Part shown: piece after piece, positions 50,495 to 52,847 of the stretch | Layout of the letters: every line of letters starts with the position of its first letter | Numbering within the stretch: position 1 is the first letter of the stretch | Origin: a virus | IMG/VR virus record: IMGVR_UViG_3300010413_000039 | Coordinates: 4,391-68,390 of that record | Reading direction: 5' to 3' (one strand) | DNA: 64,000 nucleotides | Program-made: the position numbers and the translations under genes | The notes under the pieces: model-generated | Databases searched by the model: none | What the model was told of the DNA's origin: nothing | Seen by the model: only the letters and a program-made list of their open reading frames with translations

Positions 50495-50615
50495 TTCTTA
50501 CCTCTCTTTACCTGTTCCTGCTGGATAATGAATACAGATTTGCTGTCTACCTGCATACCACGCTTACGCTTGCGTTTCTGTTCTCGTTTCTCTGATTTAT
50601 ATTCTGATCGTGTTC

Positions 50616-50957
50616 TCATGATACCTTTGCCTCAAACTCCAAGATATTTCTGGTGTCATAGGTGTTTCCAGTTGAGTGTATATCACTCTCAAAAGCTATC
50701 TTGCCTTCACGATATCCCATGTGAATCTCAGTGATCCCGTCCAGATCAACGTTTCCAAAGATACCGTGTCTCATGATAACATTAAATGATGGTGGTTTGA
50801 TCTCACGATGACCATATACACTGTAGTTATCATAAGGATGCTGGCTGTGAAGAACATCTAAAGCCTCAGCCAGATTGTCAGCCTGAATCTCTTCAAGCGA
50901 AACATGGACTATCTCAACCCCATCTGTGAAAGCTACAGCTAAAATGTATGTGTTCAT
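50616..50957 (-). CDS. hypothetical protein
   Basis: AGGAGG SD, own promoter. Confidence 0.65.
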   Translation of the reverse strand: MNTYILAVAFTDGVEIVHVSLEEIQADNLAEALDVLHSQHPYDNYSVYGHREIKPPSFNVIMRHGIFGNVDLDGITEIHMGYREGKIAFESDIHSTGNTYDTRNILEFEAKVS

Positions 50958-51049
50958 ATGTGTGCCTCCTGTATCGTTATATGTGTATTATAACAGAAAA
51001 ACCCCTGATGTCAAGAGCTATCAGGGGTTTCTCATGTTGCTCTAATGTT

Positions 51050-51226
51050 AGCGGAGGCGGTCTAACACTAGACAATAGGGTCTTATGGTTTGCGTTCAGT
51101 CTCCCTAACTTACCATGAGCTAGATCATCAACAGCCTACATAAGACCCTGATCTGACGTGCGCCCACCAGCACACACTCTCCTATCGAGTGGATTTGTCG
51201 TCAACGTGCACCCTATTGGTCAGTCC
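51050..51226 (-). ncRNA. structured non-coding segment 3' of the tmRNA-shaped RNA
   Basis: 11-bp stem 51077-51087/51139-51149 plus short hairpins; no credible ORF. Confidence 0.45.
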
Positions 51227-51616
51227 TAGCACTGCAGGGACTCGAACCCTGTCAGTCAGTGTGCACTCCCACAACACAGGATACCAGCCTGTGTTCACAG
51301 AGATTTTATGAGCATTCAGGGGAATGTGAGAGTTTATCTCGTCAGGTTACAAACAAGGGTGTGGTATACTCCGAGTCTATCTGACATATAGGGTAGGATT
51401 TCACTAAAACAGGCTTACCACACTTCCCTGCAAATGTCCTCCAGCCTTCCATTCCCCTGATTGCCCATAATTCTAGTTCTAGGGTCTGACTCTCACACCT
51501 GTACATGGTGATCGGTAGTAGTGTACTTACAAGTTGGGTCATGCCAACCTAGGATTTACACTTTATCTGCACTCTTCCTATCTAATGCGAGTCACCTACT
51601 TGAGTCATTCAGTGCT
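51227..51616 (-). ncRNA. 390-nt tRNA-like-domain RNA with tmRNA-like architecture
   Basis: AGCACTG (51616-51610) pairs with CAGTGCT (51234-51228) plus discriminator A; T-arm CAGGG-TTCGAGT-CCCTG; long internal helices. Confidence 0.6.
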
Positions 51617-51806
51617 ATCTAGAAATCTCTATGCTGTCCTGCAGTACAGTATAGTGTGTTTGTGAGACAGGTTGTACTGACCTGTATGTATCTCAGAGGC
51701 GAGTCGGACATTTCATTCTAATTAGTCCTTGAATTTCTTATGTGGCATCCCGCTTTTACACCATCCCTGCTGACAGCAGGTAAACTTTTGAACCGCAAAC
51801 CTCGGC

Positions 51807-51927
51807 GGACGGTGGTGGGATTCAAACCCACAACCTCCCATCTTTCCCTAGTGTTGATCAGACACTTTCCGAGGATGATCAATCCTCTACAGGATCATGA
51901 GTGCTCTACCAGTTGAGCTACACCGCC
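51807..51927 (-). tRNA. atypical tRNA/tRNA-like RNA with a 55-nt two-hairpin insert replacing the anticodon loop
   Basis: Acceptor GGCGGTG/CACCGTC, D-arm GCTC-AACTGGTA-GAGC, anticodon stem CTCAT/ATGGG, variable loop AGGTT, T-arm GTGGG-TTTGAAT-CCCAC; no encoded CCA. Confidence 0.8.
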
Positions 51928-51982
51928 ATATTATTTGAGGTTCATTCCAGTGATCAAATCTGGATTGTAAGATTCATATTCA

Positions 51983-52515
51983 GTTGTTAAGGTTCGATGT
52001 TATAATTATACTACAATTTCTTTGTTTGTCAAGGGTATTTCGTGTTTCTAATCTTACATTAATATCGTGGGACTTTCACCCACATGGTGGGACTTTCCCA
52101 CCAGTATTATTCTTTACCTGTCCATTGGATTTAGTCCTCCAGTGAGACACATATTTTATCTGGATGGTCTCACGCTGTCCAGTGATTATCTTCTACACTC
52201 TTGGGGGCATTCTACGTCACAGCCATTGTAGACATCGGTCTTTGGCTATCGGCTGTCTGACCTGCCCCCAAGAGGGCAGAAAATCTCAGGCTATTGTGAT
52301 CTCTCGGACACTTATCACCTTACTTAGCTGGTCGGTCGTTTCCACTACCAGTACCTGAAATATTCTGTTGTTAAGGTTCTGACAGAACCCCTCCAGTCTT
52401 AGTGCCTAGTGTAGGTCTAGTGGGTCTTCGAGTCTCGCTCTACTTGCCTCACCGCTCACTACCTGTTATGGTAGGTGCACATTGGCTGGACTGCCTACTC
52501 AGAATGTTAAGGTTC
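51983..52515 (-). promoter_or_regulatory. three boxA-like antitermination elements GAACCTTAACA
   Basis: At 51983-51995, 52367-52379 and 52503-52515; two lie within ~15 nt downstream of a -10 box. Confidence 0.6.
52066..52502 (-). ncRNA. structured non-coding transcript(s)
   Basis: Own promoter and boxA; 12-bp stem 52198-52209/52263-52274; terminal twin GTGGG..CCCAC hairpins. Confidence 0.55.
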
Positions 52516-52589
52516 TGTCTTATGTCACTATTATAGCATGTTTCAGATATTTGTCAAGGGTTTTAAGGTGTTCTCATGAAACATTAATG

Positions 52590-52847
52590 TTAGGGTGTTA
52601 CCCCTATTACCCCTATTAAACACTGCTCACCACCTTGGCATGGAAAGCCAAACACAGGTTCATTGCCAACAACGTGGTTTCTGATGTCGTTTAAGTATAC
52701 CTTATAAGTACAGACTGTATCACCTATCTCACCACCAGTGCAGGTGTCGGTCAACGGATTCGACCCTGCATCCACAGGTTGTACAGCCACCAACAACATT
52801 ACCACACCTACCACCAGCACTACCAGAATAAGCACAACGGTTTTCAT
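52590..52847 (-). CDS. small secreted Cys-containing protein
   Basis: Signal peptide ending VDA; 4 Cys. Confidence 0.6.
   Translation of the reverse strand: MKTVVLILVVLVVGVVMLLVAVQPVDAGSNPLTDTCTGGEIGDTVCTYKVYLNDIRNHVVGNEPVFGFPCQGGEQCLIGVIGVTP

What the first reader, a model, noticed from the sequence alone, without database searches (positions are those of the whole stretch)
51227..51616. 390-nt tmRNA-shaped RNA that lacks alanine identity
Seen: 5' AGCACTG pairs with 3' CAGTGCT-A, directly after a perfect T-arm CAGGG-TTCGAGT-CCCTG. A short loop replaces the D arm, and an imperfect helix (AGTAGGTG/CACTGACT) leads into ~330 nt with a ~21-bp interrupted helix (about 51306-51326 with 51450-51470), a nested GTGTGGTA/TACCACAC stem and the hairpin AACACAGG/CCTGTGTT. 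Known: tmRNA has this size and layout but starts GGGG with a G3-U70 pair and ends ACCA. Here pair 3-70 is C-G, no CCA is encoded, and I see no Ala-Ala-ending tag frame. Inference: a divergent phage tmRNA, an SmpB/ribosome-rescue decoy, or a new tRNA-capped RNA class. Caveat: the 3' strand can alternatively pair locally with CACTG at 51257-51261.
Basis: partly seen in the sequence, partly recalled or inferred. Interest (0 to 1): 0.8.

Follow-up and report, generated by a model that had tools for sequence, protein, structure and literature searches.

The report
Phage noncoding RNA with tRNA arm
The 390 bases are part of a larger, unusually well conserved, structured non-coding RNA region of an uncultured phage; the region holds one perfect tRNA-type hairpin, but it is not a recognisable tmRNA and the proposed tRNA-like closure of its two ends remains unproven.

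Summary
The T arm is a genuine tRNA-type hairpin. The 21-bp helix and one hairpin are backed by compensatory changes in strain variants.

The tmRNA reading fails every test that could be run. ARAGORN (default) and Rfam find no tmRNA. Pair 3:70 is C-G. There is no credible tag. There is no similarity to the canonical tmRNAs (G3:U70) that 6 of 19 related phage records carry in their tRNA islands.

The 7-bp terminal pairing is the only full partner within 900 nt, but its chance probability is about 0.05 and it shows no variation to test. The proposed AGTAGGTG/CACTGACT helix takes two uncompensated hits in variants. RNA-library contigs run straight across both proposed ends.

The conserved block is 51036-51923, about 5 times better conserved than the flanking ORFs. 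It runs from an anticodon-less tRNA-like gene to a terminator, behind a perfect sigma-70 promoter.

Best reading (0.5): the stretch is a segment of a roughly 0.9-kb stable-RNA unit with tRNA-derived modules. A discrete tRNA-capped 390-nt RNA remains possible (0.25). No homologue was found outside near-identical strains, and the function is unknown.

The parts
52005..52032 (-). Perfect sigma-70-type promoter (TTGACA, 16 nt, TATAAT) that would drive the transcription unit holding the finding
   Evidence: 12 of 12 matches; hexamer coordinates
51985..51995 (-). GAACCTTAACA leader motif. It is also found at 52515-52505 and 52379-52369. It resembles the boxA antitermination sequence; that resemblance is recalled, not tested
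   Evidence: (D2, D3)
51807..51927 (-). tRNA-like gene with canonical acceptor, D and T arms, but a 55-nt insert in place of the anticodon loop
   Evidence: Rfam tRNA, 45.6 bits.
51617..51806 (-). Spacer. It is as well conserved as the finding itself and is covered by RNA-library contigs that stop at 51759 (X15) and 51755 (X18)
   Evidence: substitutions only at 51672 and 51804 in X11/X12; records 13 and 14
51227..51616 (-).
51610..51616 (-). AGCACTG, the proposed 5' acceptor strand. It is invariant in the variants
51530..51551 (-). Hairpin supported by covariation: 51546 with 51535 goes from U-A to G-C in X15, and 51532 turns a G.U pair into G-C in X11/X12
51306..51470 (-). Long hairpin domain closed by the 21-bp interrupted helix (arms 51470-51450 and 51326-51306), with the nested stem 51423-51416 / 51366-51359. 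A G-C to A-U double change falls at 51454 and 51322. A 23-nt insertion sits at 51467-51469 in one variant
51273..51295 (-). Hairpin AACACAGG / CCTGTGTT
51235..51251 (-). Canonical T arm (5-bp stem closed by G-C, loop UUCGAGU). A tRNA-derived T-loop module
   Evidence: T arm plus 3' strand is 22 of 25 identical to the tRNA-Glu(TTC) at G007:27769-27843 (identity counted by eye from the two printed sequences)
51227..51234 (-). CAGTGCT plus A, the proposed 3' acceptor strand and discriminator. It can also pair locally with CACTG 51261-51257 or ACTG 51256-51253
51036..51226 (-). Conserved tail between the T arm and the terminator
   Evidence: one substitution (51068) in X11/X12; an X15 RNA-library contig covers 51052-51293
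50996..51033 (-). Intrinsic terminator hairpin followed by a T run. It overlaps the next perfect promoter (51014-50987)
   Evidence: I5

Best explanation
The 390 nt are a segment of a longer untranslated stable-RNA transcription unit, not a free-standing RNA. The unit belongs to a 68-kb phage with an SU10-type capsid and lies on the minus strand.

Shown:
- The block 51036-51923 is far better conserved between strains than the neighbouring ORFs.
- It changes by pair-preserving substitutions.
- It has no conserved reading frame.
- It appears as contigs in two RNA libraries.

Inferred: the perfect T arm at 51251-51235 is a tRNA-derived module. It would serve either as a T-loop tertiary building block or, together with the upstream tRNA-like gene, as a handle for the host's tRNA-processing enzymes (RNase P, RNase Z, CCA-adding enzyme), which would cut and stabilise pieces of the primary transcript. 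The RNA is not aminoacylated and does not act as a tmRNA. What the mature RNA or RNAs do is unknown. My guess, unsupported by any test, is interference with or scaffolding of the host tRNA or translation machinery, as is suspected for other phage RNAs that sit in tRNA islands.
For: Transcription signals: three 12-of-12 promoters on the minus strand and a terminator.

Conservation, variant X11/X12 against the window:
- 28 differences in 362 nt in the ORF 50603-50964.
- 53 in 690 nt over 52113-52802.
- Only 7 in 533 nt over 51036-51568, plus one 23-nt insertion.
- Only 6 in 379 nt over 51545-51923.

Structure under selection, on the minimum-energy fold of 51923-51036:
- The 12 X12 substitutions give 1 double-compensatory pair, 6 single changes that keep the pair, 1 broken pair and 3 unpaired. 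Random sets have 1 or fewer broken pairs in 53 of 20000.
- X15 adds a second double-compensatory pair. Random sets reach this in 126 of 20000.

Non-coding: the 66-aa ORF 51542-51342 loses its start codon in X15 (51541) and is frameshifted by the 23-nt insertion in X11/X12.

RNA-library contigs: X15 covers 51470-51759, X18 covers 51567-51755, and X15 also covers 51052-51293. The first two bridge 51616 and the third bridges 51227. Two studies stop at 51755-51759.

The T arm is tRNA-like. The 5' end resembles no tRNA 5' half.

Context: relatives carry tRNA islands of up to 39 tRNA-model matches, with tmRNA genes among them.
Against: - The windows suggested by the RNA contigs do not: 51470-51759 has z = +0.67 and 51294-51759 has z = -1.02.
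- The tRNA-like closure costs only 2.7 kcal/mol over the minimum for the isolated 390 nt. AGCACTG is the only full partner of CAGTGCT within 900 nt.
- Contigs cannot show RNA ends or levels, DNA carry-over in the RNA libraries is not excluded, and precursors would also bridge processing sites.
- One substitution (51301) breaks the long-range helix 51633-51623 / 51306-51296 that the extended fold predicts.
- The conserved block could partly reflect recent recombination between strains.
- No homologue outside near-identical strains was found, so the structure rests on three variant haplotypes.
Confidence: 0.5

Rival explanations
1. A discrete tRNA-capped RNA of about 390 nt. AGCACUG pairs with CAGUGCU and stacks on the T arm. 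RNase P cuts at 51617/51616, the 3' end is trimmed to A51227, and CCA is added. This would be an anticodon-less, D-arm-less tRNA-top-half RNA with a 330-nt body.
For: - A perfect 7-bp Watson-Crick partner that is the only 7/7 partner within 900 nt.
- A canonical T arm.
- The acceptor-plus-T-arm fold is only 2.7 kcal/mol above the minimum, and for the isolated 390 nt the acceptor pairs have probability 0.87-1.0 for six of the seven.
- z = -2.89 for exactly this window.
- A longer alternative helix next to the acceptor (14-16 with 363-365, 19-24 with 354-360) tolerates 3 of the 4 variant changes.
- The phage clade adds CCA post-transcriptionally anyway.
- Earlier scan notes describe similar tRNA-top-half RNAs in other phages (unchecked leads).
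Against: - The chance probability of the 7-mer is about 0.05 (my arithmetic).
- No variation in either strand, so no covariation.
- RNA-library contigs bridge both proposed ends.
- In the full transcript the acceptor pairs have probability about 0.01.
- The flanks are as conserved as the stretch.
- The 5' part is not tRNA-like.
Confidence: 0.25
2. A degenerate descendant of the clade's tmRNA that lost alanine identity and the tag. It would now act as a decoy for SmpB or for stalled ribosomes, like the coding-sequence-less tmRNA of mycobacteriophage DS6A.
For: - 6 of 19 related records carry RF00023 matches over the cut-off inside their tRNA islands, and a seventh is just below it.
- The general layout (7-bp stem, no D stem, T arm, large interior) is tmRNA-like.
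- A coding-sequence-less phage tmRNA that inhibits the host tmRNA is in print (passage of PMC11915505 seen).
Against: - No tmRNA model hit.
- A profile of 6 clade tmRNAs finds nothing here.
- C3-G70 here, against G3:U70 in all 6 printed clade tmRNAs.
- The conserved GGxxTCGAC and GGAC elements of the tRNA-like domain are missing (read by eye).
- No tag resembles the clade's AK..LA.ALF.. tags.
- The relaxed ARAGORN call is at noise level.
- Only structural genes are shared with relatives, so there is no local synteny.
Confidence: 0.07
3. A tRNA gene interrupted by a large intron of about 310 nt (group I or other) in its anticodon loop, which is spliced to give a working tRNA.
For: - Acceptor strands and T arm are present.
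- GCAUU (51588-51584) can pair with AGUGC (51267-51263) like an anticodon stem, leaving UUGUGGG as a possible loop (read by eye).
- The neighbouring gene and a gene in G024 also carry inserts in the anticodon loop.
Against: - No group I intron hit at E <= 10.
- No tRNA hit on the 5' half.
- The D stem does not form, the 8-9 connector would be 4 nt and the variable region 11 nt.
- ARAGORN with introns allowed does not pair these halves at its default threshold. It prefers a poor 1444-nt solution.
Confidence: 0.03
4. A decaying remnant of a tRNA island: a tRNA 3' fragment fused to unrelated sequence. The low divergence would reflect a recent exchange of this block between strains, not function.
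For: - Relatives have up to 39 tRNA-model matches while this genome has 7 plus this locus.
- Only the 3' part is tRNA-like.
- Phage genomes are mosaic (general knowledge).
- No homologues beyond near-identical strains.
Against: - Two double-compensatory changes, and 6 of the 7 single changes at paired positions in X12 keep the pair.
- A perfect promoter and a terminator frame the block.
- RNA-library contigs exist.
- The boundaries of low divergence coincide with the start of the tRNA-like gene and with the terminator.
Confidence: 0.1

Closest known systems
tmRNA (SsrA; Rfam RF00023), including the canonical tmRNAs in related phages (G017:7063-7342, G007:22212-22500, G010:37582-37910, G005:42187-42491, G023:25584-25876, G021:31785-32072)
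   Same: Size class of 280-390 nt. Possible 7-bp terminal stem stacked on a canonical T arm. No D stem and no anticodon arm. Location in a phage lineage whose relatives keep tmRNA genes among tRNA genes.
   Different: C3-G70 instead of G3:U70. No GGxxTCGAC or GGAC elements of the tRNA-like domain. No credible tag frame. No model or profile hit. Proposed ends bridged by RNA-library contigs.
Coding-sequence-less tmRNA (tRNA-like domain only) of mycobacteriophage DS6A, and the anticodon-less tRNA-like phage RNAs noted earlier in this scan
   Same: The idea of a phage RNA that keeps only the top half of a tRNA (PMC11915505, passage seen; scan notes, unchecked).
   Different: Those RNAs are about 65-240 nt and some keep alanine identity. 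Here the interior is 330 nt, alanine identity is absent and the closure is unproven.
GOLLD and ROOL, large ornate phage RNAs
   Same: Large, structured, protein-free-looking RNAs of unknown function, encoded in phages and often near tRNA islands. tRNAs are sometimes embedded in the GOLLD linker (bioRxiv 10.1101/2024.12.08.627333, passages seen).
   Different: No match to any of the 4227 Rfam families, apart from the neighbouring tRNA, on the window or the locus. ROOL has 0 of 19 matches, but that control was silent. No multimer evidence.
tRNA-like processing modules such as MALAT1 mascRNA / MEN-beta
   Same: An acceptor-plus-T-arm mimic inside a long non-coding transcript. This is the best Rfam look-alike of the 3' part: RF01684, 22 bits, E = 0.005-0.18.
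   Different: It is a eukaryotic family and the score is far below its gathering score of 42.5. The resemblance is shape only.
T-loop structural motif of large non-coding RNAs (RNase P RNA, rRNA, T-box, riboswitches)
   Same: A UUCGAGU loop closed by G-C could serve as a tertiary docking module (recalled knowledge).
   Different: No partner loop was identified, and this was not tested.

Membership tests
tmRNA (RF00023 and the permuted forms) | Scores with the family covariance model | tested here: not met
   No tmRNA family at E <= 10 on 50500-52500 or on 51200-51780. G000 has 0 matches at E <= 1, while 6 of 19 related records exceed the cut-off.
tmRNA | G3:U70 alanine identity pair in a 7-bp acceptor stem | tested here: not met
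   Pair 3:70 is C-G (51614 with 51230). All 6 printed clade tmRNAs have G3:U70.
tmRNA | Tag reading frame with a resume codon, a stop and a degradation-signal end | tested here: not met
   No frame resembles the clade's tags or ends in Ala-Ala. ARAGORN's relaxed 'tag' is marked 'Tag not identified'.
tmRNA | Detected by ARAGORN's tmRNA search | tested here: not met
   None at default settings. It is first called at -ps77, where the phage's own genome gives 26 calls and 5 shuffled genomes give 17-35.
tmRNA | tRNA-like domain: terminal stem plus T arm, D loop without a stem, helix 2 adjoining | tested here: inconclusive
   The stem and T arm are possible. The helix-2 analogue takes uncompensated changes. 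The conserved D-loop and GGAC sequences are absent.
tmRNA | Pseudoknots PK1-PK4 | not tested
   No pseudoknot prediction was run.
tmRNA | SmpB binding and alanylation | not testable with these tools
   Needs biochemistry.
tRNA gene with an intron in the anticodon loop | Cloverleaf halves (D arm, anticodon stem, a loop with U33) on either side of the insert | tested here: not met
   No tRNA hit on 51583-51650. The 3' half scores 12.3 bits, E = 1.9. ARAGORN with introns allowed does not join these halves at its default threshold.
Group I intron | Catalytic core recognised by the family model | tested here: not met
   No hit at E <= 10.
Anticodon-less tRNA-top-half phage RNAs (informal class) | Acceptor stem closed by the RNA's own 5' and 3' ends and stacked on a T arm | tested here: inconclusive
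   A perfect 7-bp partner exists, but the chance probability is about 0.05, it shows no covariation, and RNA-library contigs bridge both ends.
GOLLD / ROOL | Match to the family model | tested here: not met
   The scan of the window and locus against all of Rfam returns neither family. The targeted ROOL search found 0 of 19, with a silent control.
GOLLD / ROOL | Encoded in a phage beside tRNA genes | tested here: met
   A tRNA-like gene lies 190 nt upstream in the same unit, and the lineage carries tRNA islands.

The most novel reading that the evidence does not exclude
The stretch is a free-standing RNA of about 390 nt, capped by a tRNA top half, that descends from the tmRNA carried by this phage lineage. 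It has lost alanine identity and the tag, and it now acts as an uncharged decoy for SmpB, stalled ribosomes or tRNA-processing enzymes during infection. That would be a new functional offshoot of tmRNA.
Probability: 0.07. Interest if true: 0.8.

Novelty: new variant of a known kind. Interest (0 to 1): 0.45.

Why it matters
Phage tRNA islands hold more than tRNAs. They also carry tmRNAs, anticodon-less tRNA look-alikes and large ornate RNAs whose functions are mostly unknown.

This locus adds an unclassified, promoter-driven RNA unit of about 0.9 kb. It shows structure-preserving evolution and contains two tRNA-derived modules, in a lineage whose relatives keep canonical tmRNAs.

If the tRNA-like closure proved real, it would be a very large tRNA-capped RNA without alanine identity. 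If not, it is still a candidate new structured phage RNA that is worth a northern blot and a deletion test.

The narrow distribution (only near-identical strains were found) limits both the evidence and the generality.

Tried and rejected
Searches for homologues, all negative:
- blastn and tblastn against GenBank phages.
- Exact 20-25-mers from the T-arm region, the long hairpin and the spacer in viral contigs, metagenome contigs and genome contigs.
- Neighbouring proteins in viral contigs.
- The 113-aa neighbour has only one 95% homologue.
- blastn of 50990-52600 against 32 of the 49 related IMG/VR loci's records (picked by eye, mainly the longer contigs) gave only generic tRNA or promoter matches of 42 nt or less, best E 1.9e-4.
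- nhmmer of 52522-50995 against 12 fetched relatives gave nothing below E = 0.49.

Other negatives:
- Synteny: only structural genes are shared with G002, G003, G010 and G023.
- attP or host-tRNA copy: no genome among 185,579 species holds the 22-mer of T arm plus acceptor.
- Antisense target inside the phage: no complementarity beyond 13-nt chance matches.
- The ARAGORN 'tRNA-Cys with a 1444-nt intron' that uses this 3' half is rejected: T.T at pair 1:72, a 3-bp D stem, and a 5' half that lies inside an ORF.
- The inverted repeat 51062-51081 / 51210-51229 is not supported: 51068 would become C x A.
- RF01998 was searched in the belief that it was GOLLD. It is a group II intron domain model, so says nothing about GOLLD.
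- The ROOL search had a silent control.

From the read-laying:
- The X15 RNA library has no contig over 51294-51469, and neither RNA library has any over the flanking ORFs.
- Contig depths differ (38 against 3).

The scan's earlier notes on this genome and for this sequence were empty. The boxA consensus could not be confirmed in the paper I opened.

Full report
WHAT THE WINDOW IS. The window is bases 4391-68390 of a 68,390-bp virus record. PHROGs hits name a portal, a head protease / major head protein, a family-A DNA polymerase and a DNA methyltransferase. The major capsid protein has 181 metagenomic relatives, some carrying Pfam PF17236. GenBank phages give no match to the locus or to the portal. 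Small ORFs on the minus strand fill 44-58 kb, except for 50958-52589, which has none of convincing length and a higher G+C content.

THE OBSERVATION. The T arm CAGGG-UUCGAGU-CCCUG is canonical. GGTTCGANTCC occurs only 3 times in the genome, and the other two are in real tRNAs. The 21-nt interrupted helix is found independently as inverted repeat I1, 90% complementary. The 390 nt fold at -131.3 kcal/mol, z = -2.89, with 0 of 100 shuffles folding as well. No CCA is encoded, but that holds for all 7 of the phage's own tRNAs and for 203 of 206 tRNAs in relatives, so it says nothing.

DETECTORS.
- ARAGORN at default settings finds no tRNA or tmRNA in the window.
- Rfam at gathering thresholds finds one thing only: a tRNA at 51927-51807 (minus strand) with 55 nt in place of the anticodon loop.
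- With permissive thresholds, no tmRNA family, no group I intron and no large phage RNA appears on 50500-52500 or on 51200-51780. The best look-alike of the 3' part is the eukaryotic mascRNA model at 22 bits, against a gathering score of 42.5.
- Searched as truncated halves, the 5' part gives no tRNA hit and the 3' part gives 12.3 bits, E = 1.9.
- Relaxed ARAGORN does call exactly 51616-51227 as a tmRNA. It does so only from -ps77 downward, where the phage's own genome yields 26 calls and five shuffled genomes yield 17-35. That is noise.

THE SURROUNDINGS. Three perfect (12 of 12) sigma-70 promoters lie on the minus strand, at 52557-52530, 52032-52005 and 51014-50987, and an intrinsic terminator lies at 51033-50996. 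The finding therefore sits in a unit that reads: promoter, leader, tRNA-like gene, 190-nt spacer, the 390 nt, 190-nt tail, terminator. A second promoter-driven untranslated unit lies upstream (about 52522-52040).

COMPARATIVE EVIDENCE. No homologue was found by exact words, by neighbouring proteins, by blastn against 32 of the 49 related IMG/VR loci's records (picked by eye, mainly the longer contigs), or by nhmmer against 12 fetched relatives.

Public runs do hold near-identical copies: 20 rows in 8 studies. Laying two DNA runs and two RNA-library runs gave three variant haplotypes.
- Against X11/X12, the flanking ORF 50603-50964 differs at 28 of 362 positions, and 52113-52802 at 53 of 690.
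- 51036-51568 differs at only 7 of 533 (plus a 23-nt insertion at 51467-51469), and 51545-51923 at 6 of 379.
- The well-conserved block thus runs from the start of the tRNA-like gene to the terminator.

Among the few changes:
- 51322 and 51454 are the two sides of one pair of helix I1 and change together, G-C to A-U.
- In X15, 51546 and 51535 are one pair of the hairpin 51551-51530 and change together, U-A to G-C.
- 51532 turns a G.U pair into G-C.

On the minimum-energy fold of 51923-51036, the 12 X12 substitutions give 1 double-compensatory pair, 6 pair-keeping single changes, 1 broken pair and 3 unpaired. Random sets have 1 or fewer broken pairs in 53 of 20000. A double change as seen in X15 arises in 126 of 20000 random sets.

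The 66-aa ORF inside the stretch loses its start codon in X15 and is frameshifted in X11/X12. This is a structured, non-coding RNA under selection.

THE tRNA-LIKE CLOSURE.
For it:
- AGCACTG is the only 7/7 partner of CAGTGCT within 900 nt upstream, and it is all Watson-Crick.
- The fold with acceptor plus T arm costs only 2.7 kcal/mol over the minimum for the isolated 390 nt.

Against it, or neutral:
- By my arithmetic a perfect 7-mer is expected about 0.05 times in 900 nt. Among the 24 unannotated T arms in the relatives (25 including this one), far all-Watson-Crick partners turn up twice by chance.
- Neither strand varies in any haplotype, so covariation cannot be judged.
In the extended fold the same G pairs with a U, so G.U becomes A-U.
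- In the full transcript the acceptor pairs have probability about 0.01, while the T arm has 0.66.
- The 3' strand has local partners: CACUG at 51261-51257 and ACUG at 51256-51253.
- The T arm plus 3' strand is 22 of 25 identical to a tRNA-Glu(TTC) of relative G007, counted by eye from the sequences printed. The 5' 30 nt resemble no tRNA 5' half among 240 tRNA calls made at a relaxed ARAGORN threshold (-ps90) in the 13 records, the phage's own included.

RNA LIBRARIES. Contigs from two metatranscriptomic studies cover 51470-51759 (X15) and 51567-51755 (X18), so they run across 51616 with more than 31 nt on both sides. Another X15 contig covers 51052-51293, across 51227. Both upstream ends stop at 51755-51759 where the DNA runs go on, a weak hint of an RNA 5' end there. 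Contigs cannot show ends or levels, precursors would also bridge, and DNA carry-over is not excluded.

THE tmRNA QUESTION IN CONTEXT. Relatives found through the capsid protein carry tRNA islands: tRNA-model matches in 14 of 19 records, up to 39 per record. In 6 of 19 records there is a tmRNA over Rfam's cut-off, with a seventh just below it. ARAGORN at default settings confirms 5 tmRNAs in the 13 records I scanned whole.

All six printed clade tmRNAs are canonical. Five begin GGGGATG and end ...CATCTCCAC(C); G023's begins GGGCCTG and ends ...CAGGTCCACC. All six have G3:U70 and a GGAC element directly before the T arm, and five have the ..TCGAC element near the 5' end (G024 has TCGAT). Four of them (G005, G010, G023, G024) encode 26-30-aa tags beginning AK. 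G023's and G005's are ARAGORN calls, while G010's and G024's I read by eye from the sequences. Three of these share an AK(E/D)..LA(D/E)(A/V)LF.. pattern. The two highest-scoring tmRNAs, G017 and G007, have ARAGORN tags beginning ANTF.. and GKNF...

The window's element shares none of this. A profile of the six clade tmRNAs finds nothing at the locus. No frame resembles the tags. Only structural genes are shared with the closest relatives, so position gives no orthology. A tmRNA origin is conceivable, but nothing measured supports it.

VERDICT. The stretch is real and interesting as RNA, but the unit that evolution conserves is the whole 51036-51923 block. The tmRNA label fails, and the tRNA-like closure is at best a one-in-four proposition. 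I file it as a new, lineage-restricted variant of the structured RNAs of unknown function that phages keep in or beside tRNA islands (passages of bioRxiv 10.1101/2024.12.08.627333, and of PMC11915505). Supplementary files of papers were not seen.

Noticed in passing
window 51807-51927 (minus strand): A tRNA-like gene with canonical acceptor, D and T arms. Its anticodon loop is replaced by 55 nt that fold into a Y shape with two hairpins. Both hairpins have 7-nt loops containing the palindrome UGAUCA (UUGAUCA and CUGAUCA). No placement of a 7-nt loop gives U33, so it probably cannot decode. The self-complementary loops could kiss.
   Followed up: partly
L080 6023-6141 (G024:47022-47140): A related phage has a second tRNA-like gene with an insert. 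ARAGORN calls it tRNA-Cys with a 46-nt intron. The insert forms an 8-bp helix CTGCATGA/TCATGCAG around a loop containing the palindrome GGTACC. It is not similar in sequence to the window's insert.
   Followed up: partly
window about 52040-52557 (minus strand): A second untranslated unit behind a perfect promoter (52557-52530). A 23-nt imperfect helix pairs its leader (52519-52497) with 52403-52381. Twin hairpins GTGGGAAAGTCCCAC lie in a 49-nt piece (52063-52113) that the X11/X12 variant lacks. The part 52113-52370 differs at only 7 of 258 positions.
   Followed up: partly
window 52515-52505, 52379-52369 and 51995-51985 (minus strand): GAACCTTAACA occurs three times in the locus, twice just after the perfect promoters. 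Its 10-nt core GAACCTTAAC occurs only once elsewhere in the genome. It recalls the boxA (NusB/S10) antitermination sequence of rRNA operons. That resemblance is from memory and was not confirmed in the paper I opened.
   Followed up: partly
L087 1501-1779, L088 1501-1788, L089 1501-1829, L090 1501-1803, L082 5585-5876, L080 8944-9235: Related uncultured phages carry canonical tmRNA genes inside tRNA islands. ARAGORN predicts unusually long tags of 23-29 aa for four of them (G017, G007, G005, G023). By my own reading, G010 and G024 also encode tags of about 29-30 aa. Three tags (G010, G023, G024) share an AK(E/D)..LA(D/E)(A/V)LF.. pattern.
   Followed up: partly
genome C1:204-3521, upstream of the window: Seven ordinary tRNA genes on the plus strand: Trp, Glu, Arg, Phe, Asp, Asn and Ile. 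None encodes CCA.
   Followed up: partly
window 50987-51033 (minus strand): The terminator hairpin of the RNA unit overlaps a third perfect promoter (51014-50987) that would drive the next ORF (50957-50616).
   Followed up: no
window 51234-51251 and 51902-51921, in runs X11 and X12: A contig of another organism or phage joins these two short stretches through 22 other letters. It looks like an ordinary tRNA (anticodon loop CTTTTAA by my reading) that shares its D arm with the window's tRNA-like gene and its T arm with the finding.
   Followed up: no
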